Source: an uncultured Gammaproteobacteria bacterium
GTDB lineage: Bacteria; Patescibacteriota; Patescibacteriia; Magasanikbacterales; GCA-002688135
Direction: 5' to 3'
Length of the DNA stretch: 64,000 nt
Assembly: GCA_964536205.1 (NCBI GenBank)
Contig: CAZHVT010000001.1
Location: 5,944 to 69,943 of the forward strand
Shown: in pieces, positions 19,320 through 41,683 of the stretch
How positions within the stretch are numbered: position 1 is the first letter of the stretch
Layout of the letters: each line of letters begins with the position of its first letter
Program-made: the position numbers and the translations under genes
Notes under the pieces: generated by a model
What the model saw: only the letters and a program-made list of their open reading frames with translations
Databases searched by the model: none
Told to the model about the DNA's origin: nothing

Positions 19320-19775
19320 TTAGAGTTTTTTGAGTGCTTCGATTTGGGAGTCTTCGAGGTGTATTACTGGGCGTTTTGATTGTACTTCTGCAATTGCTTC
19401 GTCCACCGACATCCCTGTGCTGATGAGATATGCTGCGACTAATGTTGGTGCGCGACCATGCCCGTTTTTGCAATGTACATATACTTTTTCATTTTGTCCG
19501 ACCAGCGATGCAATCATATCTACACCTGATTTGATTTGTGATGGATTTGGCGGCGTGTGATCTACTGTCGGAAGCCAGAGAAATAAATCAACTCCGTATG
19601 GCGCATCCAAATGTTCTTTTTCTAGTGAGATGTCAGATTTTACTCCGTTTGCTAATAACTCATCTTTGAAATGATCTACGCAACATGCGTTTGTTCCGAG
19701 ATAAATGTGGTCTGTGATTTGATTGTACTCAAAATCTGGCTGGCCTTCTTCGTGTGCTTTCATATATATTGTCAT
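19320..19775 (-). CDS. dual-specificity protein phosphatase
   Basis: VHCKNGHGRAPTLVAAYL = HCx2Gx2R(S/T) catalytic loop; the start codon is embedded in repeat R1 copy b. Confidence 0.7.
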   Translation of the reverse strand: MTIYMKAHEEGQPDFEYNQITDHIYLGTNACCVDHFKDELLANGVKSDISLEKEHLDAPYGVDLFLWLPTVDHTPPNPSQIKSGVDMIASLVGQNEKVYVHCKNGHGRAPTLVAAYLISTGMSVDEAIAEVQSKRPVIHLEDSQIEALKKL

Positions 19776-19796: not shown

Positions 19797-22700
19797 TTAA
19801 ATAACTTCCTCCTCCTCAATTATCTCCTCTACGACCTCTTCGACTGGGGTCACCTCTTCTTGTGTTTCTTCTTCTATTATTTCTTCTAGGATCTCTTGAG
19901 CTGTTTGTTCTTCTGCTTCTTCTGCTTCTTCGATTACTTCCTCAAAAACTTCTTCTACTACCTCTTCTTCGGCGGTTTCTTCATTTTCCTCTAAAGATGA
20001 AACAGGATTTGTTTCTTCTTCCTGTTCGATTATTTCCTCTTCAATCACCGCTTCTTCAACATCTACAACTGTTTCCTCTACAACTTCTTCAGTAACATCC
20101 TCAATTACCTCTTCTTGTGCTTCTTGCTCTAGCTCCTCAAATGTTGGGATTGGTTCTTCTGAAATGATTTCTTCTGGAGTTTCCGCTGCTTGTGCTGGTT
20201 CGCCAAATGGAATTGGTGGAGCTTGCGCTGCTTCGATTTCTGTTTCAACTCCTTCTTTTTGAACGATCCACCAATCGAGTAATGTGTATTCTGAAACTGG
20301 TGAGGACAGCATGATCGTGAATGATTCTCCTGGAATTTTTTCAGAAATATGGTAGCTTCTTCCTGCAAGATTGGTGAGGAAACTTACGAAAACTTTTGAA
20401 TTATCCTGAATTGCTGGCGTGATAACTTTCAGCGAATCATTTCCTGTTTCAATCACCCCCTCACCGATCGTTGGGGCATTGAGGTTTTGCTCAACAACGT
20501 ATTCTTCCGATGTAATTCGTTTTACTGAAATCTTACCATCTTGATCAATCGCCCATGTTCCTCGAGTTGAAGTAATTGCTGTTGCCAACATATCAGAGCT
20601 ACTTGGTGACGATAAACTTCCATCTGAATTTTCTCCAATTGAAAGTGTTGTGCTTGATGTCATCATGCCGGCTCGAACCAATGTTTTGATATTTCCCATT
20701 CCTTCATCATGACTTTCCAGAGCTGTTGCAACAACAATTGCGTTGATTCCTATTGCAAGACTTGAATCGTATTTCATGAGATATCCTGGTTCTGATGCGG
20801 TCACCAACATATCTCCAACCTTAATTGCACCATTTTCATCTGATACATTTGTGTTTACCAGTCCGGCCAATGCGAGCGCTGCGCGATTCTCACCGCGAGC
20901 CCCCATCACAAAGGCAGCAGTGTTTGAAATGATACCTGCTGCAGATGATGAATATGCTTCATCAACTTTTTTGAATTTTCCTTCATGTTCTGGGTCTGGC
21001 ATTACTACATCTCCAGACTCTACAAATTGTCCAGGCGCAAGATCAACATACTCAGCAAGATCACCAATTCCGAAGTCTGTTGAGTTTGCTATGAAACTGT
21101 TTTTTGCGTATACATTTCCGCCTGCACCGACATGGAATTTCGGTGTTCCTCCATTTGAAACTGTGAGTAATGTTCGATCGAGTGCATCTGTCGATGATGT
21201 GATGGAATTTTCCGTGTCAAAGTGAAATGCTGTTGCACCTTCAGCATCTTGAATCCCAGAGAAAAATGTTGTTGTTGTGAAATTACCAGATGGATCGATT
21301 GCATAACCGATTTCAAGCAATGTCCTGTTTACGCTTCCGTCTTCTGTGGTTGTACTGAATGATACGAGGTTTCCTTGGTCTATATCTGTTCCAGTAACCG
21401 CAAATCCAAATGCTGAAGTTCCGTCCGAGTTTGTTGGCTGCGATACAAGTGACCCAGCACTTGAAAAGAATATCGCATTCCCCGCCATTGCATCTGTTGT
21501 ATCGACGGTAAGCGTACCATTTACGAATATTCCTCCTGCAACCTGAAGTTTTGCTCCTTCTGCAGTCGTATTAAGTGTTGTTGAGCTAATTCCTACGAAT
21601 CCCCCTCCAGTTGTGTCCGCAATAATAATCGGTGCATTTCCAGTAGATCCATGTCCGATGTGTGCAGTTCCAGATGTGTATAATTCTGTCCATGCATTTC
21701 CTGGTTCACCTAAGTCGCGTGTTCCGTTTGGAATGACATCTGATGTGATAACACCTTGGATGGTGATTCCATCTCCTCCGTCACTTGAGCCAAGTATGAC
21801 TGCACCTTCTGCTGAAAATACTTGATTGTTTGTGACAGTTAATGCGCTGAAATATCCTGGGCCACCAAAGAATGTTCCAGAAGCATAAATGTCATCCAAT
21901 GCATTGTTTACTGCTCCAATATCGTATGTGTTGTGTGTGCCAAGTGATACTTCGGAATTCAGTGTGATTCCAGCATTGAACGTAGAGGTTGCATTTACTG
22001 TGAGTGTGTCTTGAGATGACGCTGTGAATGTATCACCGATGATCATATTTCCTCCAAAATATGATTCGTAACCATCCCCTAATATTAACCCGTAATTCAT
22101 GTATCCACCTCCAAAAATAGTACTGGTTGCAATCGCCACTCCATTTTGAGCACCGTTTTGAATTCTAACTACTGGAAGCCCACTTGCCCCCCCATTGGTA
22201 GCTCCTCCGAGGTGTGCTGCTCCAGATGCATATAACCCTTGAAATGATAATGATTGTGATCCTAAATCTGTCGAGGCTGTTGCTTTAGGAAGAAGGTTCT
22301 GGCCGAATCTTGCTATTCCATTAAATGTAATGTTATCTCCGGATCCATCTCCTAGCGTGACATGACTGTTGAATGAAACTTGGTCTCTTACAGAAGTTGT
22401 TGAGTAGATGAGTAATGAGTCCCCTGCAGAATTGTCACCAATGATTACGCGCTCATCGAATTGTATGTCTGATTCAAATGTAGACGATGAGTGGACTACT
22501 AAATTATTTCCACTATTTGTTCCTATTACCACATCCCCTTCAGCTGTTAATGCTGATTCAAACGATGATGTTGAATGCACTCGTAAACTATTGCTATTGT
22601 TGGTTCCAATATAAAATTCTCCATCAATTCCAGCATTGTTTGCAAAAGTTGTTGATGCGTTTACGGTAACCAAGTCAGTCCCCGCACTTCCGATCGCATC

Positions 22701-24368
22701 TGGAAGCATTGTTGATGCGTACATTGTTCCTGATGTGTATGTGTTCCCATTTCCATCAATTGAGAATTTTTCTTCGCCTTGTTGTCTCACCATCAATAAC
22801 GATCGGTTTTCTGCTACGGTCAAACCTCGTGCTGTATCAAATACAAATGCACCTGCTCCAGCCTGATCCAAAACTTCTGATTTGAATAGAACTTCTGCTG
22901 TATCTGTTCCGTAAATGAATAGTCTCGTTGCATCATCTGAAGACAAAGCTAGAATCGGTGATTTCGATGCATCATCTTCATTATCAATTCGAACAGCTGC
23001 CGTGCTTGATGTATCCGTCAAATTATGCTGACTTGAATTTGATGTTCCTTCCAGCTCGACCCATCCACCTGCAACATACAGATCACTTACTCCAGCACTC
23101 CAACTTCCGGAGATAAACTGTCCTAAACCAGCATCGTCCAACGTCACTCCATCGTCATCCATCCCAATAAACAACGCCTTTCCATTTGACCTTTGATCCA
23201 TAATCACAAGCTGAGATTCCCCCATATTTAAATCTTGTCCATTTTCATCCATTGCATGAATGATAACTGAAGCCTCACGATTATTTCCCAACCCTTGTTT
23301 TGTATTTATTAATAATGCATGGTCATCGTATGCCATGTCTTGGTTCTCGTTAATATACACGTTGTTGAATAGCGATGTATCCCCTGAAATATCGAGTGTC
23401 GAACTTCCATAAAATGCTCCGCCAGAATCTACCCAAGCTAGCAAACTTGAGGAGGCGGAATTTACCCATTGTGTGAGATGTCCGGAAGTTCCTGTTGCGT
23501 GAATTGAGAGTGCTGGCTGTCCGGAGTCCGGGACGATGGTGAGTTTACCGACTGCTGTTGATGTACCAAATGCAAGATCGTCTGATGTGTCATCGAGTGT
23601 GATCGTTCCTCCGTTATCTGTAATTCCTCCTCCGCCACATCCTGTACATGTTCCGGAAACCGTGAGGTCTCCTGTGTACATTGTTCCAGATGCAAAAACA
23701 TCTCCATCTTCATCAACGCGGAATTTTTCTGTGCCCCCAACCGCAAGACCCAGCAGTGTGTAGTCTGCTGTTGCTGATGCTGGGTTGATGTAGAGCACAC
23801 CGCCAGCTACTTCAGTGCTTGTTGGCGTTCCGGTAAAAACGAAATCTCCATTGCTTAATGCTGCTGGAATGTATGCTCCTGTTCCGCCGGCTGTGGATGT
23901 TGCAAGTCCAGAGAGATAGAGTGCGTTGTATGCGAAACCGACGTTGTTTAATTGTTTGCGTGGCGTCATTTCTGAATCTGATGCAACGGTGACGCCGAGA
24001 AAAAGATTGTTTGATTGGAAAATTGTTGGATCGATGGTATTTGTATCTGATCCATCTCCTAAGTTTACAGAGAAAATTCCGCCGGTTACCGTGACGGTAA
24101 CTGCAGTTGGCGTTCCACATGTTCCTGATGCAGTGTATTGACATGATCCGCCAGTTGATGCGTCGTAGATTGAAAATTTGATACTATAATCACCATCTGA
24201 AACCGTAGTTCCTGTGCTATCGGAGAGTTTTCCTTGATATGTGATGATGCCGTCAAATGCGTGAGCTGGTGTTGCGAAAAAGATTATTGAGATGCTTACC
24301 ATGACAAAAACCATCACAGTAAATGTGATCTTAAAAAACCATTCAGTACGTGACAAGAATGGGGGCAT
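19797..24368 (-). CDS. giant secreted/surface protein (1523 aa): signal peptide, Gly/Thr/Ser-rich beta-repeat region, strongly acidic Glu/Val/Ile C-terminal tail
   Basis: N-terminal hydrophobic leader ending AHA-FDG; long low-complexity G/T/S repeats; last about 150 aa roughly 50% Glu. Confidence 0.65.
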   Translation of the reverse strand: MPPFLSRTEWFFKITFTVMVFVMVSISIIFFATPAHAFDGIITYQGKLSDSTGTTVSDGDYSIKFSIYDASTGGSCQYTASGTCGTPTAVTVTVTGGIFSVNLGDGSDTNTIDPTIFQSNNLFLGVTVASDSEMTPRKQLNNVGFAYNALYLSGLATSTAGGTGAYIPAALSNGDFVFTGTPTSTEVAGGVLYINPASATADYTLLGLAVGGTEKFRVDEDGDVFASGTMYTGDLTVSGTCTGCGGGGITDNGGTITLDDTSDDLAFGTSTAVGKLTIVPDSGQPALSIHATGTSGHLTQWVNSASSSLLAWVDSGGAFYGSSTLDISGDTSLFNNVYINENQDMAYDDHALLINTKQGLGNNREASVIIHAMDENGQDLNMGESQLVIMDQRSNGKALFIGMDDDGVTLDDAGLGQFISGSWSAGVSDLYVAGGWVELEGTSNSSQHNLTDTSSTAAVRIDNEDDASKSPILALSSDDATRLFIYGTDTAEVLFKSEVLDQAGAGAFVFDTARGLTVAENRSLLMVRQQGEEKFSIDGNGNTYTSGTMYASTMLPDAIGSAGTDLVTVNASTTFANNAGIDGEFYIGTNNSNSLRVHSTSSFESALTAEGDVVIGTNSGNNLVVHSSSTFESDIQFDERVIIGDNSAGDSLLIYSTTSVRDQVSFNSHVTLGDGSGDNITFNGIARFGQNLLPKATASTDLGSQSLSFQGLYASGAAHLGGATNGGASGLPVVRIQNGAQNGVAIATSTIFGGGYMNYGLILGDGYESYFGGNMIIGDTFTASSQDTLTVNATSTFNAGITLNSEVSLGTHNTYDIGAVNNALDDIYASGTFFGGPGYFSALTVTNNQVFSAEGAVILGSSDGGDGITIQGVITSDVIPNGTRDLGEPGNAWTELYTSGTAHIGHGSTGNAPIIIADTTGGGFVGISSTTLNTTAEGAKLQVAGGIFVNGTLTVDTTDAMAGNAIFFSSAGSLVSQPTNSDGTSAFGFAVTGTDIDQGNLVSFSTTTEDGSVNRTLLEIGYAIDPSGNFTTTTFFSGIQDAEGATAFHFDTENSITSSTDALDRTLLTVSNGGTPKFHVGAGGNVYAKNSFIANSTDFGIGDLAEYVDLAPGQFVESGDVVMPDPEHEGKFKKVDEAYSSSAAGIISNTAAFVMGARGENRAALALAGLVNTNVSDENGAIKVGDMLVTASEPGYLMKYDSSLAIGINAIVVATALESHDEGMGNIKTLVRAGMMTSSTTLSIGENSDGSLSSPSSSDMLATAITSTRGTWAIDQDGKISVKRITSEEYVVEQNLNAPTIGEGVIETGNDSLKVITPAIQDNSKVFVSFLTNLAGRSYHISEKIPGESFTIMLSSPVSEYTLLDWWIVQKEGVETEIEAAQAPPIPFGEPAQAAETPEEIISEEPIPTFEELEQEAQEEVIEDVTEEVVEETVVDVEEAVIEEEIIEQEEETNPVSSLEENEETAEEEVVEEVFEEVIEEAEEAEEQTAQEILEEIIEEETQEEVTPVEEVVEEIIEEEEVI

Positions 24369-24572
24369 AATCTCCTTCGCGGAATATTATTTCCGGTTAC
24401 TTATTATACCATGAAAAGATATATTTTTTTATACTTTTTATGATGATTTCTGTGTATAAATTCTACATAAACTTTTTCTAAATTTAGGATGAAATAAATA
24501 TTTTAACTTGGAAAGAAAAAAACGGCCCTGGCCGTTTTTCTCATAGAACACTGAACTTAGAACTTGAAACAT

Positions 24573-27500
24573 TTAAGAGCCTTTTCCCTCACCAAAATAT
24601 CCTCCAGATTTTGGTAATGGTGGTAGTTTTGGAGGTGAGTCCGTATCACTCTCGCTTTCAGGTGTTTTTTCAGTGGGTTTTTTACCTTCATGAAATAGAT
24701 CCTTTGGTTCATTTGGATTTGTTGGTGTTTTGTCTGTTTCTGGAGTTGTTTTTTTCTCTGAAGGTAACGCTGTTGGAGTTGATCCCGAATCTGGGTGTTT
24801 TTGGGTGGTTTGTGCTTCTTCGAGCTGCTTATCCTGTTGTTGTGTGCTTTGTTCTTGTGTTTTTTGTTCCTGGCCTTCGCCGCGCTCTAACATTACTTTT
24901 TCACCAATAATTGTGGCTTCTTTTTTGTCTGATAAATCGAATACCTCACTCTTTTTCTTAATGAATCCCTTCTTTTCGTAGGTGACGTAGTATGTGCGTT
25001 GTGATGCGAGAAAGGCATATCTGCCGCGTGCATCAGTAAGTTGTGTATCCAACAGCTTGTTGTATTCTGTGTCGAAAATACGTGCAACTGTGTATCGCAA
25101 CGGTTTTCGTACAAATGCATCGAATACAATTCCCCATTCTTTTGGTTTCTTTGGATATGCAAGACGTCTTATGAGGAAGAATAATGCGATGTGAGCGAAT
25201 AGAATGAATATTGTTTTTGCGGTTGGAACAATGATTACCGAAACGAGCGCTAATACAATTCCCAACATTGAGATCCCAACTTGTACTTTTCGACCGATCG
25301 CCTTGAATATCAATTTCTTGATTGAAACATTGTCTGCCTTAGCTGGATCCAGAGGAATGTTTGGTGCGATGCGATGTGCTTCATTTTCAACGACGATTTC
25401 TTCGTTATGATAAAGTTCTGCGTATCGCCCATCAAGTTGTGTATCTTTGACGTATGTTGATGGGAAGGTGAATTTGTTTTTTGATGCTTCAAGTCTGTAT
25501 CTTCCTTGATCTACGAAGAATGCATATCGTCCGAGTTTGTCTGTGATTTTTGTTCTGATGATTCGCCCGGAATTTACATCGATCAGTCGAACATATGCGA
25601 GATCAACAGGATTTTTTGTGAGTGAGTTATATACCACTCCCCAACCCTTTCTTTTGCGTCGACTGAATAGCAAGAGTGGTTGTGTGAACATGAATTGAAG
25701 ATAGTGCAGCATCGAAGGCAAACCTGTTGCCGCGACAGTGTTTACTGCGATAGCTGTTGCAACAGTTGGAGCAACTGTTTGCTCCGTCGCATCCTCAACC
25801 TCTGGATTTTGTACGAATTTGATTGTTTCACGCACAGCAATTTTTGATCCATATGCAACTTTTTCTCCAACGTTTTCAGTGACATTTAATATGTTTTCGA
25901 GAACTGGAGCGTCGGGATCTATTACATCTGCGATTTTTTTCGGTATGCGAAATAGATCGAACGATCGATTTATGATGTTGTTTTCTATATCGAATGTTAC
26001 TGTTTCAGTTCGATGTCCTGGCTCACTTACTTCAATTTTGTATCGTCCATTTGGAATCATAAATCCGAACAGTCCATTTCCTGAAGTTGTGGTTGGATTT
26101 GTTTGACCATACGGCGATACATCAATATTGTTTCCATCTACGTCTGTGAGTTTGATTGAAGCTCCTGGAAGTGCAGTGAGTGTGCCGTCAGTTTTTGATG
26201 ATACTAACCCATACAGCGCCCCGCCGATTGTAAATGATGTTGTGTCTTCACTTCCGTCAGAGTATGCCACTCGCACAAATGATGATTCTTGGCCGGCTTT
26301 TTTCATCAGTGTTGCGTGATAGGATTTGTCACTTTCTTTGAGTGAGAATGTTTGTTCTCCGGTTACTAATGTGACTGATTGTACTTCTTTTTCAGCTTGT
26401 AGATTCTTTTTAGGTACGACTACACTTAGATCAAATCCTGTCAGAACTGTGACGGTATTTTTTATTGGCTTGAGTGTAATCGAGTATGAAGCGGTTGCAA
26501 ATGCAAGATCATTGATGTCGAAAACATCTTCTGGTGCGCTGCCAAATCCTATTAATCCCAGCGCTGTGTCAGCTATCCCCTTTTCTTCTTCTCCTTTTGG
26601 AATATCTGCAGCCTCATCAGCTCCTGCATCCTCACCATCACCACCTTGCGGTGGTTTGAATGGAATTTCGTCAGGAATTCCCGGCTCTTCTCCGTCGGTT
26701 TCTGGAAAGGCATCTTCATCGCACGCATCTCCAATTCCATTTGCATCTTTGTCGATTTGATCAGGATTGTGAACATCTGGGCAGTTATCCTCGTCATTTG
26801 GAAATCCATCGTTGTCTTTATCTGCGGCTACTGGCTCATCTTCCGGTTTTGGTTCAATCAAATCTCCTTGTGCGAGCGCGCCTGATGAAACATTTCCAGA
26901 TGTGTCTTTTGTGAATGCAACGAAATACACTTGTTTTGGAAATGATGCTTCTTTTGGAACTGAAATTATGATTGATGTTGTTTCTGCTGTTGTGGTTACG
27001 AGTGATAATCCGTCAGTTATACTTGTTGGTTTTGTATCTAAATTGTATCGAATAACTGTGCTTTCAAAATCTGGAACTGGTGGATTTTTCCATTTGAGAA
27101 TTGCGAGCCATGAGTAGTTGTTTTCTCCGATTGGTTCTGGAATTAAGTTTGCCTGAAAATCGATGACGTTTGGTGGTGACACTTCGTCAGTTAGTGTGTT
27201 AAATGTTTTTATTTCGAGTGTTCCATTTGATTGCGCATCAGCCACAAATACATTCACCTCTTGTGATGCATTTGAAATCAAATTCACAAATGTTGCGGTG
27301 TGTGTTGTGCTAAATCCTTCTGGTGCTTTTGTTTGTGGCTCAACCGTTTCGTGTTCTTGGTCAATTATTTGGATGACACTTGTGGTTGGCTCGTTCGTTG
27401 TTACCGTAATTGTTGCTGTGGTTTGGGTGATGTTTGTGATTTCAAATGATAGGATTTGTGGTGCAGTTGTGTCTGGAGTTTGGAATGATCCGACATCACT

Positions 27501-28553
27501 TGTTGTTGTTCCATAAGCACCCTCGGCTTTGACTATGTAAAAGTAGGTTGTGTCTGATAACAATTCTGAAATTGGAATTGCATGATTTGTTTCGTCTTGA
27601 GGATTTATGAGGATGATATCAAACGGCCCTTCGATGGATGTCGAGAGACTCACGTTTGATGCAACTGCTTCGCTTGTTTGCCAACTTAAAATTCCACTTG
27701 TGTCGCTGACTGATTGATATGAGATGCCGCTTATAGTTGGTGGTACACCTGTTGTGGTTGCTGATGTTTCGACTTCTTCAGATTCTTGATCTGTGGCGGA
27801 TGTGAGTCTTATAAAATATTCTGTGAGTGGTTCGAGTTGTGTGATTCCTACACTGTGTTGCGTGCTTAATTCTGCTGTATATGATTGTCCAATTTCATAT
27901 GCCGCGGTTTTTCCAAGTTCGAGTTTTGTGTCTGCGTCTTTATTTGTTACCCACGTTACAGTGATTTTGCCGGCTGTATCTGCATCTACTTGCACATCTG
28001 TTATTTCAAGTGCGACAAAATCTGCGGCTGGTGTAGTGATAACCACCTCTTCTTGCACAGCTAATTCTGTGTCTGTTGCTGATGAGATTTTTCCAAAATA
28101 CGTGATTTCAGGATTCAGACCTGTTAGCACCATTGTGTGATTACTCAATTCATTTGGGTCGTACGTGGATCCGAGTTCGTAGTTTAATGTTGTCCCCCAT
28201 TCCACTTGAGAATCTGCTGCATGATTCGTGGTCCATGTGATTTTCATGGATGTTCCTGATATCGGAGTTACTACCACATTTGAGATTGCGAGTGATGCTG
28301 GTGGATCTGGATCTAATGGGTCAACTGGAGGATCTGCTGGAGGATCTGGCTGACTAGGAGCTCCCCCGCCGCCTCCGGACGGAACAGTTGCCTCAATAAT
28401 CACATTTCCGGTACTTGTTGATATGATTTGAGAATGCGCGTCCTGTACTCCGGTTTGCATCAATCCAAAAGCTCCGAGCGCGAGCGCGGTGATTGCAATA
28501 TATATGTGTATGCTTTTTTGTAGGCGCTTAATCATATTGATTATCGTCATTTT
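24573..28553 (-). CDS. giant surface protein (about 1320 aa) with Fn3-like repeats, thrombospondin type-3 Ca-binding repeats, carboxypeptidase-regulatory-like domains and internal TM segments
   Basis: Signal peptide; repeated S..V.W.T Fn3-like units; DKDNDGFPNDEDNCPDVHNPDQIDKDANGIGDACDED is a TSP3 repeat; GRYKIEVSEPGH / GRYAFLASQ CarbopepD_reg-like; start is approximate. Confidence 0.65.
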   Translation of the reverse strand, partial: KMTIINMIKRLQKSIHIYIAITALALGAFGLMQTGVQDAHSQIISTSTGNVIIEATVPSGGGGGAPSQPDPPADPPVDPLDPDPPASLAISNVVVTPISGTSMKITWTTNHAADSQVEWGTTLNYELGSTYDPNELSNHTMVLTGLNPEITYFGKISSATDTELAVQEEVVITTPAADFVALEITDVQVDADTAGKITVTWVTNKDADTKLELGKTAAYEIGQSYTAELSTQHSVGITQLEPLTEYFIRLTSATDQESEEVETSATTTGVPPTISGISYQSVSDTSGILSWQTSEAVASNVSLSTSIEGPFDIILINPQDETNHAIPISELLSDTTYFYIVKAEGAYGTTTSDVGSFQTPDTTAPQILSFEITNITQTTATITVTTNEPTTSVIQIIDQEHETVEPQTKAPEGFSTTHTATFVNLISNASQEVNVFVADAQSNGTLEIKTFNTLTDEVSPPNVIDFQANLIPEPIGENNYSWLAILKWKNPPVPDFESTVIRYNLDTKPTSITDGLSLVTTTAETTSIIISVPKEASFPKQVYFVAFTKDTSGNVSSGALAQGDLIEPKPEDEPVAADKDNDGFPNDEDNCPDVHNPDQIDKDANGIGDACDEDAFPETDGEEPGIPDEIPFKPPQGGDGEDAGADEAADIPKGEEEKGIADTALGLIGFGSAPEDVFDINDLAFATASYSITLKPIKNTVTVLTGFDLSVVVPKKNLQAEKEVQSVTLVTGEQTFSLKESDKSYHATLMKKAGQESSFVRVAYSDGSEDTTSFTIGGALYGLVSSKTDGTLTALPGASIKLTDVDGNNIDVSPYGQTNPTTTSGNGLFGFMIPNGRYKIEVSEPGHRTETVTFDIENNIINRSFDLFRIPKKIADVIDPDAPVLENILNVTENVGEKVAYGSKIAVRETIKFVQNPEVEDATEQTVAPTVATAIAVNTVAATGLPSMLHYLQFMFTQPLLLFSRRKRKGWGVVYNSLTKNPVDLAYVRLIDVNSGRIIRTKITDKLGRYAFFVDQGRYRLEASKNKFTFPSTYVKDTQLDGRYAELYHNEEIVVENEAHRIAPNIPLDPAKADNVSIKKLIFKAIGRKVQVGISMLGIVLALVSVIIVPTAKTIFILFAHIALFFLIRRLAYPKKPKEWGIVFDAFVRKPLRYTVARIFDTEYNKLLDTQLTDARGRYAFLASQRTYYVTYEKKGFIKKKSEVFDLSDKKEATIIGEKVMLERGEGQEQKTQEQSTQQQDKQLEEAQTTQKHPDSGSTPTALPSEKKTTPETDKTPTNPNEPKDLFHEGKKPTEKTPESESDTDSPPKLPPLPKSGGYFGEGKGS

Positions 28554-29452
28554 TTTCGTTTTTGTATTATCATCCAGCCGAATAATGGCAAGAAAAAGAT
28601 CCACAATAATGGCGTGTAGATTATGAAACGTGATGTTAGTACCTCTCCCTGATAACCATTAAGTTGTAATTCGGCTTCGTACAATCCAATGCTTAGTGGG
28701 CTGAGCGCGTCATACCATTTGTTGTTTGCGTTCCAATATTGTCTGATTGTGCGTTGTGAATTTGGTAGGATTTTGTGAAAATCTTCGTTTATGGTTACGA
28801 AGTCTTGTGCCCCGGTAAATATATTTGTGACACTAATAATTCCTTGTGGTGTTGTATGAATTGAGCCTGTGTTTTCTAACATGAAAGATAGTTCAACTGG
28901 AAATCCTATAATTGTTTTGGGGGTTGCTGTGAACTCTTTAATTTCTTTTGTGATTTTCATGTCTCCCTCAACTGTGATGAAATGCAGAATTCCAACTTCA
29001 TTTGCGCTTGCGATGATTGCGTTTTCCGGAGGTCGTGTTCGTGCAAAAACTGCTGCGTAATATCCTCCTGGGTTTGCATCTGGCGGAACTGTTATGGTGA
29101 TGGGAATTTTTTTTGTTTCTTGTGGTTCAAGTGATATTTCTTGTTGTGGTACTTGAAACCATCTTACTGGCAAAGTCTCACTATCATCTGTAAATTCTGG
29201 CACACCTTCTGTTTCTCCTGCTGTGAATGCACGGACTTTAAAACTTACGAGTTCGATGAATGACGATTGATTGCTCACTTCTACTTCGAATTCGTGCCTT
29301 ACTCCTGCTTCTCCGATTACTTCTTTGGTGAATGGGCGTACACCGAGCGCGTCAGCTTTTGTTGGGATTATTACTGCTGTAAAACCTAATATCAATGCCA
29401 TCAATACTAAGATTGAGTGCCTATTTGTGTGAGTTTTTCTTAAAGTAAGCAT
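28547..29452 (-). CDS. cell-surface protein with N-terminal signal peptide and C-terminal TM anchor followed by KRKK
   Basis: Architecture read from hydrophobicity; ends LWIFFLPLFGWMIIQKRKK. Confidence 0.5.
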   Translation of the reverse strand: MLTLRKTHTNRHSILVLMALILGFTAVIIPTKADALGVRPFTKEVIGEAGVRHEFEVEVSNQSSFIELVSFKVRAFTAGETEGVPEFTDDSETLPVRWFQVPQQEISLEPQETKKIPITITVPPDANPGGYYAAVFARTRPPENAIIASANEVGILHFITVEGDMKITKEIKEFTATPKTIIGFPVELSFMLENTGSIHTTPQGIISVTNIFTGAQDFVTINEDFHKILPNSQRTIRQYWNANNKWYDALSPLSIGLYEAELQLNGYQGEVLTSRFIIYTPLLWIFFLPLFGWMIIQKRKK

Positions 29453-29458
29453 GTATTA

Positions 29459-30106
29459 CTAGAAATTTGCGACTGTTGAAAATGTGACTGTGTGTGCATA
29501 TGATCCGGGTTCTGTATTGTCTGATATTGCTGCTTTGAAATATACGGTCGTTTCGTCTGATGTTACCGCACTACTTGAGCTAATGATTGATAGCAATGCT
29601 GAAGTTATTCCGATATCACGTGTGTTATATAGTCCAGATGTTCCGTCAGTTTGAAAACCATATTCTTCCGTTCCTGCAGTTACAACGAAATCTGAAACAT
29701 CATCAATATCATAATCTCCACTTCTTAAGTTTCCGTCTTCACTCATTTTTACCGAGTAACCTGACATTGCATCTGTTGTAACGGTTATTAATAATCGAGC
29801 CTGCTCTATAGAAGAATCTGAAAGCTGACCGAGATCAAGCGAGCCTGTCGATAATGATGCGGTTAAAACTCCGTCCTGAAGTGCTCCGATCAGTCCGTCG
29901 ATAACTTGATAATTTGTACTGGTTGCTGTCTCGCCGCCAAACTCCCCTATTGTGTCTTTGAGTGTATAATTTGTTGATGTTGAAAGACCTCCAGATCCGA
30001 ATGAATCGAGCTGAATATGATAATTTGTTGAGGACATTGTTTCCGCCCACACAGCATATGGCATGAGCACTAACACGATTATTATTGCGGCGATTTTAGA
30101 TTTCAT
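29459..30106 (-). CDS. secreted protein with repeated STNY-x(n)-G motifs
   Basis: Signal peptide MKSKIAAIIIVLVLMPYAVWA; three STNY repeats. Confidence 0.45.
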   Translation of the reverse strand: MKSKIAAIIIVLVLMPYAVWAETMSSTNYHIQLDSFGSGGLSTSTNYTLKDTIGEFGGETATSTNYQVIDGLIGALQDGVLTASLSTGSLDLGQLSDSSIEQARLLITVTTDAMSGYSVKMSEDGNLRSGDYDIDDVSDFVVTAGTEEYGFQTDGTSGLYNTRDIGITSALLSIISSSSAVTSDETTVYFKAAISDNTEPGSYAHTVTFSTVANF

Positions 30107-30116
30107 ATCGACTGAA

Positions 30117-30899
30117 TTATAGCACGAAATTTGCGCGTGGATCTGATTGGGATGAATCCCATAAAACGTTCCATAATGACTTGAGTTGGCCGACCACCAT
30201 CATGTCCGTCATATATGTTATATGATATTTTCCTGCTTTTCGGTAGAGATAAATTACCGTGGATCCGAGGATGATGCTGTTTGTTGGGAATAATTCTGGT
30301 CCGGACCATTTTCTTACGTGGAGTGGGGGCTGATGAACTGTTACGTCATGTTGATTTATTTCTTTTGAAAACGAGAGGATGTGGATTGGTACATCTATGT
30401 TGTGTGTGAATGCGAGGTCTTGGAGTATTTCCAGAAATGGGATTGTTGTTCTTTTGTCAGCGTATGCCCAGCCTTTGAGAGATGCAAGTGAATCGATTTT
30501 TACGAGAGAATCGAATTTTTCTGATATGTGCGAGACTGCTAGTTCGAGTGATTCGAATTGGTGTCGGGCTGCATATTCATAATCATCTTCAGCTTGAAGC
30601 TGCTCGATTACTCTTTGGGTGGCTTTTTTCTTTTCTTTTACTTGGGCTGCTTCTTTTTGGATTATGGATTCGAGGACATGTGGCGACTGTGGTGTGAATG
30701 ATGTTCCGGCCGTATTTGTCATTATTGAAATGAGTCCTTTTTTGGACAGTTCTTTAGTGGCGCTGTATACGGTGGTTCGATTTATCCCTGTTGCTGATGA
30801 TATGTCTTTTGGAGATGCTGTACCTGAATCGAGCAGCCATACGTATATGGCTGCTTCTGTTTTTGTGAGTCCTACTGTTACTAGGTCTTGTTCCAACAT
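30117..30899 (-). CDS. TrmB-family transcriptional regulator
   Basis: N-terminal winged-HTH LTKTEAAIYVWLLDSGTASPKDISSATGINRTTVYSATKELSKKGLI typical of TrmB; ATG start chosen 2 nt from the operator palindrome. Confidence 0.65.
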   Translation of the reverse strand: MLEQDLVTVGLTKTEAAIYVWLLDSGTASPKDISSATGINRTTVYSATKELSKKGLISIMTNTAGTSFTPQSPHVLESIIQKEAAQVKEKKKATQRVIEQLQAEDDYEYAARHQFESLELAVSHISEKFDSLVKIDSLASLKGWAYADKRTTIPFLEILQDLAFTHNIDVPIHILSFSKEINQHDVTVHQPPLHVRKWSGPELFPTNSIILGSTVIYLYRKAGKYHITYMTDMMVVGQLKSLWNVLWDSSQSDPRANFVL

Positions 30900-30900
30900 G

Positions 30901-31006
30901 TGTTGAAGGTACTTCAACAGGTATTTAAAGCTAAATTTAGTATAACAAAGTGTGAAATAAAGTCAAATTGTTGAAGGTACTTCAACACGAATTACTCTAA
31001 ATTTAG
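30901..31006. promoter_or_regulatory. Duplicated composite operator: TGTTGAA-N5-TTCAACA (30901-30919, 30969-30987), each followed after about 10 bp by the perfect palindrome CTAAATTTAG (30931-30940, 30997-31006)
   Basis: Inverted and direct repeats read directly; located at and upstream of the TrmB-like gene start. Confidence 0.55.
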
Positions 31007-40285: not shown

Positions 40286-41683
40286 ATGATGACGAATGAA
40301 TCAATCTGGCAAGCAGTGCTTGCAGAATTGGAGCTAGAGCTCTCTAAAGCGAACTTTACGACGTGGTTTCGTAATACTTCATTATCTTTAATGGAGAATA
40401 ATGAGGTTTCAGTGTATGTCCCTAATAACTTCACCAAATCATGGTTGGAGAAAAAGTATCACACATCTATATTGAAAACCCTTGAACAGGTTCTTGGAGC
40501 TCGTATTCAAAAGGTTGCGTATTGCGTTGAGAAAAATCCACAAAAATCCCAAGCTTCTTTTATCACACAAGGTTTCACCTTCAATCACGATTCTGCAGAC
40601 AATTCACTTACTGTTGGCCCACAGGCTCCTGTGGTACAGCAAAATCCAAATGCGCGCGGCTTACACCCGCGTTATGTTTTTGAAAATTTTATTGTGAGTA
40701 AAAGTAATGAGTTGGCACATGCCGCGGCGCAGGCTGTGGTATCCAACCCCGGTGCTTCTTATAACCCCCTCTTTATATACGGCGGAGTTGGGCTTGGAAA
40801 AACTCATTTAATGCAAGCGATCGGACACTCTGTTTTGCAACAAAATCAAGAGGCGAAAGTTTTGTATGTTTCTTGCGAGACATTTACGAATGATTTCATT
40901 CACGCAGTTCGCAATGGTTTGGCAAAAGAATTTAAAGATCGTTATCGCAATGTTGATGTATTGATTGTTGATGATATTCAATTTATTACTGGAAAAGAGG
41001 GGACGCAGGAAGAGTTTTTTCACACGTTTAATGCGCTTCACCAACAGGATAAGCAGATTATTATTTCATCAGATCGTCCACCAAAAGCAATTCCGGCATT
41101 GGAGCAGCGATTACTTTCTCGTTTTGAATGGGGGATGATTGCTGATATTTCATTTCCAGATGTTGAAACACGTGTGGCTATTTTGGAAGCGCGTTGCTCA
41201 GAGCGTGGTATTAAAGTTCCATCAGATGTATTGCACACTATTGCAAATCACATCCAAAATAATATTCGTGAATTAGAAGGAGCTTTGAATAAAATTATTG
41301 CGACGATTGAAATGCACAAGAGTGAGCCTACGTCTGAAATGGTACAGCAAGTTTTAGGAAGTATTAAAGCATCACGCACCATTCACTCTGTATCACCTAA
41401 GGAATTGATTAGAGTGGTTTCTGAATACTTTGATGTAGGTATTGATGATATGGTTGGAAAAAGCCGTGAGAAACGTATTGCATTCCCACGACAGATTATT
41501 ATGTATTTGTTGCGTAAGGAGATGAAAAACTCATATCCTTCGATTGGAGCGGAGTTGGGTGGACGAGATCATACAACTGCGATTCATGCGTATGAGAAGA
41601 TTCGTAAGGCTGTTGAGGTTGATAATAAACTCAAAGCCGACATACAGTATATTAAAGAACGATTGTATACGCCTGCGGCGTAG
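40286..41683 (+). CDS. dnaA: chromosomal replication initiator DnaA
   Basis: AAA+ Walker A GGVGLGKTHL, sensor motifs, C-terminal DNA-binding helix-turn-helix; 465 aa. Confidence 0.95.
   Translation: MMTNESIWQAVLAELELELSKANFTTWFRNTSLSLMENNEVSVYVPNNFTKSWLEKKYHTSILKTLEQVLGARIQKVAYCVEKNPQKSQASFITQGFTFNHDSADNSLTVGPQAPVVQQNPNARGLHPRYVFENFIVSKSNELAHAAAQAVVSNPGASYNPLFIYGGVGLGKTHLMQAIGHSVLQQNQEAKVLYVSCETFTNDFIHAVRNGLAKEFKDRYRNVDVLIVDDIQFITGKEGTQEEFFHTFNALHQQDKQIIISSDRPPKAIPALEQRLLSRFEWGMIADISFPDVETRVAILEARCSERGIKVPSDVLHTIANHIQNNIRELEGALNKIIATIEMHKSEPTSEMVQQVLGSIKASRTIHSVSPKELIRVVSEYFDVGIDDMVGKSREKRIAFPRQIIMYLLRKEMKNSYPSIGAELGGRDHTTAIHAYEKIRKAVEVDNKLKADIQYIKERLYTPAA

What the first reader, a model, noticed from the sequence alone, without database searches (positions are those of the whole stretch)
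19797..30899. TrmB-headed operon of four secreted/surface proteins including two giants (1343 and 1523 aa)
The genes are contiguous on the minus strand with gaps of 10 nt or less: regulator, then a 215-aa secreted STNY-repeat protein, then a 301-aa protein with signal peptide and C-terminal TM-KRKK anchor, then a 1343-aa protein with Fn3-like repeats, thrombospondin type-3 Ca-binding repeats and CarboxypepD_reg-like domains. After a 200-bp gap comes a 1523-aa G/T/S-repeat protein ending in a 150-residue poly-acidic (E/V/I) tail. The layout resembles Gram-positive cell-surface complex loci (small secreted subunit plus membrane-anchored subunit plus large adhesin) and would dominate the cell surface of a small-genome organism. 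An archaeal-type TrmB regulator controlling it is unusual.
Basis: partly seen in the sequence, partly recalled or inferred. Interest (0 to 1): 0.55.

Follow-up and report, generated by a model that had tools for sequence, protein, structure and literature searches.

The report
Reduced Pam-type surface adhesin locus
This gene cluster from an ultra-small candidate-phyla-radiation (CPR, Parcubacteria-group) bacterium appears to be a stripped-down relative of the recently described CPR "Pam" pilus: one small cap protein, a membrane-tethered chaperone, a giant membrane-anchored stalk and a long fibre adhesin that probably let the cell attach to a host.

Summary
The five minus-strand genes exist as described. 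The 1343-aa ORF is a maximum; the protein is probably 1320-1325 aa. They are not an anonymous set of surface proteins.

- **215-aa protein:** a distant homologue of the CPR pilus protein PamT and the Pam pilin C-domain. Its predicted fold resembles chaperone-usher pilins.
- **301-aa protein:** a PapD/CfaA-like two-domain chaperone with a C-terminal membrane helix. It is related to Firmicutes WxLIP (DUF916).
- **1343-aa protein:** carries, right after its signal peptide, the same VxVxATVP strand that two-domain Pam-type pilins in related loci have as their linker. It has no pilin domain and ends in a conserved three-helix membrane module.
- **1523-aa protein:** has its own promoter and the N-terminal domain of Bdellovibrio MAT fibre adhesins.

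The order pilin, chaperone, anchor, fibre recurs in loci from 80 GTDB species, mostly in the Parcubacteria group. The TrmB-like regulator sits directly upstream in only three of them, so it is lineage-specific and not remarkable.

Most likely mechanism (inferred, not shown): chaperone-assisted donor-strand exchange fixes the cap onto the stalk.

Verdict: a new variant of a known kind, of moderate to good interest.

The parts
30901..30987 (-). Control region. Two identical 19-bp near-palindromes TGTTGAAGTACCTTCAACA (30969-30987 and 30901-30919) bracket a sigma70-like promoter, TTGACT-16-TATACT (30966..30939). They are candidate operators for the TrmB-like regulator.
   Evidence: These are the only two sites in 64 kb (0.03 expected by chance). 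Promoter scan. The same pair with the same 68-bp spacing occurs in L006/L009, and degenerate TGTTGAA-N5-TTCAACA copies occur in L007.
30117..30899 (-). TrmB-family winged-helix regulator (260 aa from ATG 30899; the longest ORF starts at 30917). No recognisable sugar-binding C-domain.
   Evidence: Pfam TrmB E 1.2e-12, 48 bits, above the 25.6 cut-off. NCBIfam TrmB/TrmBL1 equivalogs score only 28-44 bits against cut-offs of 600-650. Gene calls of 260 aa. Directly upstream of the pilin gene in only 3 of 80 related loci.
29459..30106 (-). Cap subunit (215 aa), PamT-like. It has a signal peptide (aa 1-21), three STNY motifs (aa 24-75; nt 29882-30037) and a pilin-type beta-sandwich (aa 78-215; nt 29462-29875) ending in ...TVANF.
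   Evidence: NCBIfam CPR_pilus_PamT 8.8e-19 (67.9 bits, cut-off 240) and CPR_Pam_pilin_C 1.2e-9 (38.4 bits, cut-off 55). All 25 family members hit PamT. AF2: aa 78-215 have pLDDT above 90 and aa 16-73 below 50. Top Foldseek matches are PapA, the PapG pilin domain, FimA, CfaB and CsuA/B (probability 0.99-1.0, E about 1e-3). No donor-linker motif (PSSM 1.3).
28547..29452 (-). Membrane-tethered PapD/WxLIP-like chaperone (301 aa). It has a signal peptide, two beta-sandwich domains (aa 36-161 and 169-279) and a C-terminal TM helix (284-300) followed by KRKK. The conserved strand 'IPITITVPPDA' (aa 116-126) is a candidate complementing strand.
   Evidence: AF2 pLDDT 82.9. Foldseek: E. faecium WxLIP 9i1y at 1.3e-10, and CfaA, CsuC, Caf1M, EcpB, PapD, FimC and SafB at 1e-10 to 1e-7. 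Family profile against EfmWxLIP1, E 1e-6. Pfam WxLIP_PGBD in 30 of 41 members. Motif score 9.7.
24573..28550 (-). Giant stalk/anchor (1320-1325 aa; longest ORF 1343 aa from 28604). From N to C terminus: signal peptide; donor-type strand 'VIIEATVPS' (aa 50-58; nt 28377-28403) followed by a Gly5/Pro-rich spacer; Fn3 repeats; TSP3 repeats; a transthyretin-like domain; a conserved membrane module (aa 881-1230; nt 24861-25910) with three TM passes and two transthyretin-like domains; and a low-complexity tail. It contains no pilin domain.
   Evidence: Pfam. TM scan. Alignment A5 shows invariant RRKRKxWG and KPKxWG motifs. All 31 A5 members hit CarboxypepD_reg. The donor-strand PSSM built from 15 two-domain pilin linkers scores the window at 10.0, against a background 95th percentile of 5.3; anchors versus background give p = 3e-13. 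Linker-HMM hits concentrate in anchors. The pilin HMM gives no significant hit in this protein.
24515..24542 (-). Intrinsic-terminator-like hairpin after the anchor gene (AAAAACGGCCAGGGCCGUUUUUUU).
   Evidence: 12-bp stem followed by a U run, -15.8 kcal/mol, z-score -2.3.
24403..24411 (-). Extended -10 box TGGTATAAT. Together with the Shine-Dalgarno sequence GAAGGAGA before ATG 24368, it indicates that the fibre gene has its own promoter.
   Evidence: Read directly from the sequence. It was not picked up by the two-hexamer scan.
19797..24368 (-). Fibre adhesin (1523 aa). It has a signal peptide, a MAT-type N-terminal domain (aa 31-170; nt 23859-24278), a long G/T/S-rich body, a conserved C-proximal region (aa about 1000-1390) and an acidic tail (aa 1370-1523; nt 19800-20261; 63 Glu).
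   Evidence: NCBIfam Bdello_MAT_N 8.7e-8 (32 bits, cut-off 60); 32 of 34 orthologous N-domains hit it. A fibre gene with this domain follows the anchor gene in 32 of 47 informative loci. Acidic tails recur in orthologues. No PHROG or PDB sequence hit.

Best explanation
The locus encodes a reduced, usher-less chaperone/donor-strand surface assembly of the CPR 'Pam' type, plus a co-located fibre adhesin.

**Shown by homology and fold:**
- The 215-aa protein is a PamT-like pilin-domain subunit.
- The 301-aa protein is a PapD/WxLIP-like chaperone tethered to the cytoplasmic membrane by a C-terminal helix.
- The 1523-aa protein carries the N-terminal domain of MAT-type trimeric fibres.

**Inferred mechanism:**
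1. All four structural proteins are exported by Sec.
2. The tethered chaperone binds the incomplete Ig-like fold of the 215-aa subunit by strand complementation. The candidate complementing strand is IPITITVPP.
3. The giant 1320-aa protein has a VIIEATVP strand on a Gly/Pro spacer at its mature N-terminus but no pilin domain. It displaces the chaperone by donor-strand exchange.
4. The result is not a long polymer. A single cap bearing three STNY motifs sits at the distal end of a long Fn3/TSP3 stalk. The stalk is fixed in the membrane by a conserved three-helix module with two probably cytoplasmic transthyretin-like domains. This is the PamR/PapH terminator logic, with the shaft pilins missing.
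5. The fibre, transcribed from its own promoter, provides the variable host-binding element.

The first four genes form an operon driven by a promoter flanked by two palindromic operators for the TrmB-like regulator. The overall role is attachment of an episymbiotic CPR cell to its host.
For: **Homology to Pam pilins.**
- NCBIfam PamT at 8.8e-19 and Pam_pilin_C at 1.2e-9 for the window protein. All 25 family members hit PamT and 19 of 25 hit Pam_pilin_C.
- The predicted fold matches chaperone-usher pilins. The N-terminal 60 residues are not modelled.

**Chaperone.**
- Two-domain fold plus a C-terminal TM helix. Best matches are WxLIP and CfaA/CsuC/Caf1M/PapD/FimC.
- This is the architecture reported for PamC/PamD in bioRxiv 10.64898/2026.03.03.709456.

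**Donor strand on the anchor.**
- Related loci contain two-domain pilins with the linker [ED]DQVTV[ST]ATV[DN]P directly before the pilin domain. This is the position of the strand shown by cryo-EM to be donated in PamA/B.
- A PSSM and an HMM built from that linker pick out the N-termini of the anchors. In some lineages the hit is at aa about 175-200, after a pilin-NTD-like domain. Anchors exceed background with p = 3e-13, and the window scores 10.0.
- The anchors lack a pilin C-domain, and the small pilin lacks the linker motif.

**Other support.**
- Chaperone-anchor gene fusions occur in L012, L013 and L024.
- Conserved gene order: chaperone in 76/76 loci, anchor in 41/52, fibre in 32/47, and a single pilin gene in 64/80.
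- The fibre is MAT-like. The Pam paper also reports a tail-fibre-like gene at the centre of pam neighbourhoods.
- Operon signals.
Against: - No complex was modelled and no filament or protein has been observed. Donor-strand exchange between anchor and cap rests on motif similarity alone.
- All Pam family hits fall below NCBI's curated cut-offs (67.9 against 240; 38.4 against 55).
- Foldseek E-values for the pilin are only about 1e-3.
- The function of the three conserved STNY motifs is unexplained. They could themselves be donor strands, which would give a polymer.
- The donor-type motif exceeds the background 95th percentile in only 30 of 51 anchors.
- In the fusion variants the chaperone domain replaces the free N-terminal strand. 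This fits permanent complementation rather than exchange.
- The inferred topology puts two CarboxypepD_reg-like domains in the cytoplasm, which is unusual for that fold. The first TM segment scores below the hydrophobicity threshold.
- Adjacency of the fibre gene does not show a physical link.
Confidence: 0.5

Rival explanations
1. A true pilus. The 215-aa protein is the major subunit and polymerises head-to-tail. It would use one of its N-terminal STNY motifs as the donor strand, as in single-subunit Caf1/Saf-type fibres or chaperone-free TasA and archaeal threads. The giant protein would only terminate the fibre and anchor it.
For: - The N-terminal 50 residues are conserved, beta-prone repeats that AF2 leaves unstructured in the monomer. 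This is typical of an N-terminal extension that orders only in a polymer.
- Fold matches include the self-polymerising subunits PapA, FimA, CsuA/B, CfaB and TasA.
- 64 of 80 related loci have only this one pilin gene. It is a large family of 6171 clusters, which is easier to understand for a structural subunit.
Against: - The STNY region lacks the VxVxATVxP donor motif used by the two-domain paralogues (PSSM 1.3).
- The region aligns to the N-terminal part of the PamT model (profile positions 8-155). The Pam paper describes PamT as a tip subunit without a donor strand.
- Large proteins with the same C-terminal pilin domain and no linker (L053, L063, L069) behave like tip adhesins.
Confidence: 0.27
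2. A Csc/WxL-type static cell-surface complex. The 301-aa protein would be a permanent scaffold, like WxLIP, that holds the small subunit on the cell envelope without strand exchange. The two giants would be independent adhesins that merely share regulation or location.
For: - Sequence-level relation of the 301-aa family to WxLIP/DUF916, with 9i1y and 9i25 among the four best fold matches.
- WxL clusters also combine a small subunit, a large subunit and a TM-anchored DUF916 protein (PMC10599100).
- Chaperone-anchor fusions suggest permanent binding in some lineages.
Against: - No WxL domain or motif in any partner.
- No LPXTG protein.
- The DUF3324 domain was not detected.
- The small subunit is homologous to Pam pilins.
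- The anchor's donor-type N-terminal strand is conserved and would be unexplained under this model.
Confidence: 0.15
3. Unrelated secreted or S-layer-like proteins that happen to be neighbours. There would be no shared assembly pathway.
For: - No Pfam hit at all for the 215-aa and 1523-aa proteins.
- No experimental data exist for this lineage.
Against: - The gene order is conserved across loci from 80 species, with 76/76 pilin-chaperone adjacency.
- Gene fusions occur.
- The pilin and chaperone folds are complementary.
- No S-layer domain hits.
Confidence: 0.03

Closest known systems
Pam pilus of Ca. Mycosynbacter amalyticus (CPR, Saccharimonadia): PamA/B/E pilins, PamT tip, PamC/D membrane-anchored chaperones, PamR anchor (bioRxiv 10.64898/2026.03.03.709456; NCBIfam NF058579 and NF058581)
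   Same: - The pilin C-domain and PamT are homologous to the 215-aa protein.
- The chaperone is PapD-like with a C-terminal TM helix.
- A membrane-anchored Fn3 protein carries an extra N-terminal strand, as PamR does.
- There is no usher.
- A tail-fibre-like gene lies in the neighbourhood.
- The system is specific to CPR bacteria.
   Different: - The window has no two-domain shaft pilins (PamA/B/E), so it may not build a filament.
- It has one chaperone instead of two.
- The anchor is about 1320 aa with a conserved three-TM module and transthyretin-like domains, rather than a small RbmA-like protein with one TM.
- All scores fall below the curated cut-offs.
- The lineage is Parcubacteria-group (Magasanik-, Uhr-, Falkow- and Kerfeldbacteria relatives). 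[quoted passage not shown]
- No ATP synthase genes were noted among the window ORFs that were scanned.
WxL / Csc cell-surface clusters of Firmicutes: small WxL, large WxL and WxLIP = DUF916-DUF3324-TM (PMC10599100; PDB 9i1y, 9i25)
   Same: - The 301-aa family is related to WxLIP by sequence profile and fold.
- The layout of small secreted subunit, TM-anchored two-domain protein and large surface proteins is the same.
- Strand insertion from DUF916 into the partner has been predicted for WxLIP.
   Different: - There is no WxL domain or motif.
- There is no LPXTG partner.
- The partner subunit is of Pam/chaperone-usher pilin type.
- DUF3324 was not detected.
Classical chaperone-usher pili (Pap, Fim, CFA/I, Csu, Caf1)
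   Same: - The folds of both the subunit and the chaperone match.
- The pilin-like proteins end in an aromatic residue in most cases: F in 64 of 103.
- The tip-adhesin, shaft and terminator logic is visible across related loci.
   Different: - There is no outer membrane and no usher.
- The chaperone is membrane-tethered.
- The terminator is a giant membrane protein.
- There is no detectable sequence similarity.
Bdellovibrio MAT (mosaic adhesive trimer) fibres (PMC10769870; NCBIfam NF053851)
   Same: - A conserved beta-rich N-terminal domain of about 130 aa follows the signal peptide directly.
- The protein is very long and repeat-rich.
- The distal end is variable.
- Some related loci carry two fibre genes (L004, L057, L077).
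   Different: - The match is sub-threshold (32 bits against a cut-off of 60).
- No S74 or known tip domain was found.
- The protein ends in an acidic low-complexity tail.
- The host organism is a monoderm CPR bacterium.

Membership tests
CPR Pam pilus system | Subunit with a C-terminal truncated Ig-like pilin domain homologous to the Pam pilins | tested here: met
   CPR_Pam_pilin_C E 1.2e-9 and PamT E 8.8e-19 for the window protein. 25/25 family members hit PamT and 19/25 hit Pam_pilin_C. The fold resembles chaperone-usher pilins.
CPR Pam pilus system | Reaches NCBIfam's curated cut-off for PamT (240 bits) or Pam_pilin_C (55 bits) | tested here: not met
   67.9 and 38.4 bits. The two-domain paralogues in related loci score 20-50 bits.
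CPR Pam pilus system | FimC/PapD-like chaperone with a C-terminal transmembrane helix | tested here: met
   AF2 model with two beta-sandwich domains and a TM helix at 284-300. Foldseek matches to CfaA, CsuC, Caf1M, PapD and FimC at 1e-10 to 1e-7.
CPR Pam pilus system | Two-domain major pilins (NTD + donated linker + CTD) that form the filament | tested here: not met
   None found among the locus proteins tested; the pilin HMM hits only the 215-aa protein. They are present in a minority of related loci.
CPR Pam pilus system | Membrane-anchored terminator with an N-terminal donor strand and FnIII domains (PamR) | tested here: inconclusive
   The architecture and the donor-type motif fit. No sequence comparison with PamR was possible and no complex was modelled.
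CPR Pam pilus system | Extracellular filament assembled by donor-strand exchange | not testable with these tools
   Needs cryo-EM/ET or multimer modelling.
WxL / Csc cluster | WxLIP: DUF916 + DUF3324 + TM helix | tested here: inconclusive
   DUF916 is detected: PF06030 at 8.5e-4 for the window protein and in 30/41 members, a profile hit to EfmWxLIP1 at 1e-6, and Foldseek at 1.3e-10. The TM helix is present. DUF3324 was not detected.
WxL / Csc cluster | Partner proteins carry a WxL domain with two Trp-x-Leu motifs | tested here: not met
   The mature 215-aa protein has no Trp, and no WxL motif occurs in any of the four proteins. No Pfam WxL hit in 25 family members.
Chaperone-usher pili | Outer-membrane usher | tested here: not met
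   No usher family hit in any of the five proteins. CPR cells are monoderm (established knowledge).
Sortase-dependent Gram-positive pili | LPXTG sorting signal and a pilin-specific sortase | tested here: not met
   No LPXTG motif; only LPKSG inside the low-complexity tail. No credible sortase TLxTC ORF in the window; the single TLxTC match lies in a 123-aa ORF within the fibre-gene region.
Type IV pilins | Class III signal peptide (G/FTLxE) | tested here: not met
   The regex search found none in the four proteins.
MAT fibre superfamily | Conserved beta-rich domain of about 130 aa directly after the signal peptide | tested here: met
   Bdello_MAT_N at 8.7e-8 for the window protein; 32/34 orthologues hit it. 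All scores are below the curated cut-off of 60 bits.
MAT fibre superfamily | Trimeric beta-prism shaft and a defined tip domain (S74 or lectin-like) | not tested
   No Pfam, PHROG or PDB sequence hit for the body or tip. No structure prediction was run on this protein.
TrmB regulators | N-terminal TrmB winged helix plus a C-terminal sugar-binding domain | tested here: inconclusive
   The HTH is met (48 bits, above 25.6). The C-domain was not detected, and the equivalog scores of 28-44 bits are far below the 600-650 cut-offs.

The most novel reading that the evidence does not exclude
The cap-stalk assembly may be the docking base for the MAT-like fibre. The three conserved STNY motifs of the cap would each engage one N-terminal domain of the trimeric fibre. 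If so:
- The cassette would identify the long-sought surface partner of the MAT N-terminal domain, which is explicitly unknown in Bdellovibrio (PMC10769870).
- CPR Pam systems, Firmicutes WxL/Csc clusters and MAT fibres would be parts of one ancient, usher-less chaperone/strand-complementation pathway for mounting adhesins.
- The anchor's conserved cytoplasmic domains could relay host contact into the cell.
Probability: 0.12. Interest if true: 0.8.

Novelty: new variant of a known kind. Interest (0 to 1): 0.55.

Why it matters
How ultra-small CPR bacteria recognise and hold on to their hosts is largely unknown. The first CPR-specific pilus (Pam) was described only in 2026, from one cultured Saccharimonadia species.

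**What this locus adds**
- Related machinery exists in a reduced form in at least 113 GTDB species. The 80 loci examined are mostly from the Parcubacteria group (Magasanik-, Uhr-, Falkow- and Kerfeldbacteria relatives). The small subunit alone accounts for 6171 protein clusters.
- The machinery uses a giant membrane protein as the strand donor, and in most loci it is followed by a MAT-like fibre gene.
- The membrane-tethered chaperone is linked at sequence level to the DUF916/WxLIP proteins of Firmicutes. The Pam preprint does not mention this link. It suggests a common strand-complementation assembly route in bacteria without an outer membrane.

**Practical consequences**
- The locus provides concrete candidates for attachment factors in uncultured marine CPR.
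- It offers testable peptide-domain pairs.
- It identifies families that current annotation thresholds miss.

Tried and rejected
- **PHROGs scan** of the four structural proteins: no hits.
- **PDB sequence searches:**
  - The fibre gave nothing.
  - The pilin profile gave only a chance hit.
  - The fibre N-domain profile gave nothing significant.
  - The anchor membrane-module profile gave only a NOMO2 transthyretin-like domain at 2e-4.
- **The search for related loci with the full 25-sequence pilin alignment** failed for lack of a conserved stretch. A 10-sequence alignment worked.
- **A strict regex for the donor strand** was too narrow: 14/54 anchors against 11/470 background ORFs. I replaced it with a linker HMM and a PSSM.
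- **Literature search for the paper behind PDB 9i1y/9i25** (WxLIP bound to long WxL): not in the library.
- **Direct comparison with the M. amalyticus Pam proteins** was not possible.
- **Readings considered and rejected:**
  - S-layer: no S-layer domain hits.
  - Sortase pilus: no LPXTG signal and no sortase.
  - Type IV pilin: no prepilin motif.
  - WxL protein: no Trp in the mature small subunit.
- **Rfam and tRNA scans** of the window found only three tRNAs and nothing inside the locus.

Full report
**1. Observation**

The ORF scan confirms five consecutive minus-strand genes:
- 30117-30917: 266 aa
- 29459-30106: 215 aa
- 28547-29452: 301 aa
- 24573-28604: 1343 aa
- 19797-24368: 1523 aa

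The spacers are 10 nt and 6 nt, then an overlap, then 204 nt. The 1343-aa figure is the longest possible ORF. Public gene calls and orthologues start at ATG 28550 (1325 aa, ATGA overlap with the preceding stop) or at ATG 28535 (1320 aa). The regulator probably starts at ATG 30899 (260 aa).

Pfam confirms the domain claims:
- a TrmB HTH (48 bits, above the cut-off);
- Fn3/Pur_ac_phosph_N, TSP_3 and CarboxypepD_reg domains in the 1343-aa protein.

A hydrophobicity scan confirms signal-like N-termini in all four structural proteins. It also confirms the C-terminal TM plus KRKK of the 301-aa protein and the acidic tail of the 1523-aa protein (63 Glu in 154 residues).

**2. Transcription units**

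*Upstream of the regulator*
- A promoter-like site, TTGACT-16-TATACT, is bracketed by two identical 19-bp near-palindromes, TGTTGAAGTACCTTCAACA.
- These are the only two copies in the 64-kb window, against 0.03 expected.
- The same pair with the same spacing occurs in the closest relative, L006. Degenerate copies occur in L007.
- I read them as operators for the TrmB-like protein. This is an inference.

*Downstream of the 1343-aa gene*
- A 12-bp hairpin followed by a U run (-15.8 kcal/mol) comes first.
- An extended -10 box (TGGTATAAT) and a strong Shine-Dalgarno sequence follow, before the 1523-aa ATG.
- The locus is therefore probably a four-gene operon plus a separately transcribed fibre gene.

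**3. The 215-aa protein**

*Sequence evidence*
- Pfam gives nothing.
- NCBIfam matches CPR_pilus_PamT (E 8.8e-19) and CPR_Pam_pilin_C (E 1.2e-9). Both are well below the curated cut-offs.
- All 25 homologues collected hit PamT, and 19 hit the pilin C-domain.

*What these families are*
- The models derive from the Pam pilus of Ca. Mycosynbacter amalyticus (bioRxiv 10.64898/2026.03.03.709456).
- In that system, the two-domain pilins PamA and PamB polymerise by donating the linker strand between their N- and C-domains.
- PamT is a single-domain tip subunit.
- PamC and PamD are FimC/PapD-like chaperones with a C-terminal TM helix.
- PamR is an FnIII protein with an N-terminal strand and a C-terminal TM.

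*Structure*
- An AF2 model built on the family alignment gives a confident beta-sandwich for residues 78-215. Residues 16-73, which hold the three STNY motifs, have no confident structure.
- The best PDB matches are chaperone-usher pilins: PapA, the PapG pilin domain, FimA, CfaB and CsuA/B. Probabilities are 0.99-1.0, but E-values are only about 1e-3.

*Family size*
- A profile search of 1.84 billion cluster representatives finds 6171 clusters at E <= 1e-3.

**4. The 301-aa protein**

- A two-step homologue search gave a 41-member family.
- 30 of the 41 members hit Pfam WxLIP_PGBD (DUF916).
- The family profile matches E. faecium WxLIP1 in the PDB at E 1e-6.
- The AF2 model (pLDDT 82.9) has two beta-sandwich domains and a C-terminal helix.
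- Foldseek returns WxLIP (9i1y, 1.3e-10). It then returns a long list of chaperone-usher chaperones (CfaA, CsuC, Caf1M, EcpB, PapD, FimC, SafB) at 1e-10 to 1e-7.
- This is the PamC/PamD architecture.
- It also ties these CPR chaperones to the DUF916 proteins of Firmicutes WxL/Csc clusters (PMC10599100). The Pam preprint does not mention that link.

**5. Comparative genomics**

A scan of one genome per GTDB species found relatives of the small pilin in 113 genomes, and 80 loci were kept. They come from:
- Magasanik-, Uhr-, Falkow-, Kerfeld- and Peregrinibacteria;
- records titled 'Patescibacteria group';
- many MAGs with placeholder 'Gammaproteobacteria' titles.

The closest relative is a marine Parcubacteria-group MAG.

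I called ORFs in all loci. I searched them with the pilin and chaperone profiles and with the window proteins. Denominators are the loci with enough flanking sequence to judge.

| Feature | Count |
|---|---|
| Chaperone gene follows the pilin gene | 76 of 76 |
| Protein with the anchor's C-terminal membrane module follows | 41 of 52 |
| Fibre gene with the same N-terminal domain follows the anchor | 32 of 47 |
| Locus has a single pilin-like gene | 64 of 80 |
| TrmB-like gene directly upstream | 3 of 80 |

Three kinds of variant are informative:
- Extra 345-370-aa two-domain pilins occur in some loci.
- 1400-2100-aa proteins end in a pilin domain, like tip adhesins (L037, L053, L063, L069).
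- The chaperone is fused to the anchor in L012, L013 and L024.

**6. The donor strand**

- The two-domain paralogues carry a conserved linker, [ED]DQVTV[ST]ATV[DN]P, immediately before the pilin domain. This corresponds to the donated strand seen by cryo-EM in PamA/B.
- The small pilins, including the window protein, lack this linker.
- An HMM of the linker finds its next-best hits in the anchors.
  - In some anchors the hit is at residues about 175-200, after a pilin-NTD-like domain and before a Gly-rich spacer.
  - In others, as in the window, a bare strand follows the signal peptide directly: 'GNVIIEATVPSGGGGG'.
- A PSSM built from 15 linkers scores the window anchor at 10.0. The 95th percentile of 470 background ORFs is 5.3.
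- Anchors exceed background overall (Mann-Whitney p = 3e-13). 30 of 51 anchors are above the 95th percentile.
- The anchors contain no pilin C-domain. By the logic of chaperone-usher terminators and PamR, they can donate a strand but not accept one.
- The chaperone's conserved strand 'IPITITVPP' scores 9.7 with the same PSSM. That is what one expects of a complementing strand that is later exchanged. This is suggestive only.

**7. The anchor's membrane module**

- The most conserved part of the 1343-aa protein is its C-terminal 350 residues (alignment A5).
- The order of elements is:
  - an A/V/T-rich segment plus an amphipathic LRFLFLQP helix, followed by RRKRKxWG;
  - a CarboxypepD_reg-like domain;
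  - a TM hairpin at 1091-1131;
  - KPKxWG;
  - a second such domain;
  - a low-complexity tail.
- The positive-inside rule places both beta-sandwich domains in the cytoplasm. That is unusual for this fold, so I flag it as uncertain.

**8. The fibre**

- Its N-terminal 140 residues match NCBIfam Bdello_MAT_N (8.7e-8). 32 of 34 orthologous N-domains do the same. All scores are sub-threshold.
- In Bdellovibrio, all 21 MAT fibres share such a domain directly after the signal peptide. Its partner on the predator surface is unknown (PMC10769870).
- Acidic, low-complexity C-terminal tails recur in the CPR fibres.
- The body and tip have no detectable homologues.

**9. Interpretation**

*What homology and fold support:* a PamT-like pilin-domain subunit, a membrane-tethered PapD/WxLIP-like chaperone, and a MAT-like fibre.

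*What is inferred:* the chaperone holds the cap after Sec export. The anchor's N-terminal strand then replaces the chaperone strand. The window has no shaft pilin, so the product is most simply a capped stalk rather than a filament.

*Rivals:*
- a homopolymeric pilus that uses the STNY region as the donor;
- a static WxL-like complex;
- unrelated neighbouring genes.

No multimer model or experiment was available, so the mechanism has moderate confidence only.

**10. Comparison and novelty**

- The locus shares homologous parts and logic with the Pam system. It fails the curated family thresholds and lacks the defining shaft pilins.
- It shares the chaperone-like protein with WxL clusters but has no WxL domain.
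- It shares folds with chaperone-usher pili but has no usher.

I classify it as a new variant of a known kind. Three features are of interest:
- its breadth in Parcubacteria-group lineages;
- the giant donor-strand anchor;
- the recurrent link to MAT-like fibres.

Noticed in passing
window 30901-30919 and 30969-30987; L006 8736-8820; L007 about 1320-1490: Two exact copies of the near-palindrome TGTTGAAGTACCTTCAACA flank the promoter of the TrmB-like gene. The pair is conserved, with the same 68-bp spacing, in the closest relative. Degenerate copies occur in a more distant relative. They are probably operator sites.
   Followed up: partly
L006 8830-9170: In the closest relative, a GC-richer insertion of about 340 bp lies between the second palindrome and the regulator's ATG. 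It is absent from the window and its nature is unknown.
   Followed up: no
window 40286-41683 and 42065-43189: dnaA and dnaN lie about 10-12 kb from the locus (Pfam). The cumulative GC skew is lowest between about 22 and 38 kb and rises after about 40 kb. The adhesin locus therefore sits close to the probable replication origin. L006 has the same neighbourhood (DnaA, RmuC, S20).
   Followed up: partly
window 19320-19775: A 151-aa dual-specificity phosphatase (DSPc, HCxxGxxR) lies directly downstream of the fibre gene. It is in the same position in L007.
   Followed up: partly
L012 615-3092, L013 3046-7029, L024 10753-13446: In three related genomes the chaperone-like protein and the anchor membrane module are fused into one polypeptide. 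This links the two functionally.
   Followed up: partly
L037 4076-10438, L053 6152-10405, L063 4760-9799, L069 5279-10408: Proteins of 1400-2100 aa end in the same pilin domain but have no donor linker. They resemble two-domain tip adhesins of chaperone-usher pili.
   Followed up: partly
window 28547-29452 (aa 116-124 of the 301-aa protein): The chaperone's most conserved strand, IPITITVPP(DAxPGGYY), resembles the pilin and anchor donor-strand motif (PSSM 9.7). It could be the complementing strand.
   Followed up: partly
window 24861-25910: The positive-inside rule places two CarboxypepD_reg/transthyretin-like domains of the anchor in the cytoplasm. This would be an unusual location for that fold. 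The first TM segment is only weakly hydrophobic.
   Followed up: partly
loci L010-L088 (record titles): Many GTDB representative MAGs that carry this CPR cassette are titled 'uncultured Gammaproteobacteria bacterium ... binchicken'. These are evidently placeholder names rather than real taxonomy.
   Followed up: no
window 58952-60586 and 47984-50800: A CotH-kinase-domain protein (544 aa) and a class A penicillin-binding protein with a Big_7 domain (938 aa) lie elsewhere in the window. They have no evident connection to the locus.
   Followed up: no
L008 13828-15629: In one distant relative, the pilin/chaperone genes are followed by three small genes with T4SS_pilin (PF18895) hits.
   Followed up: no
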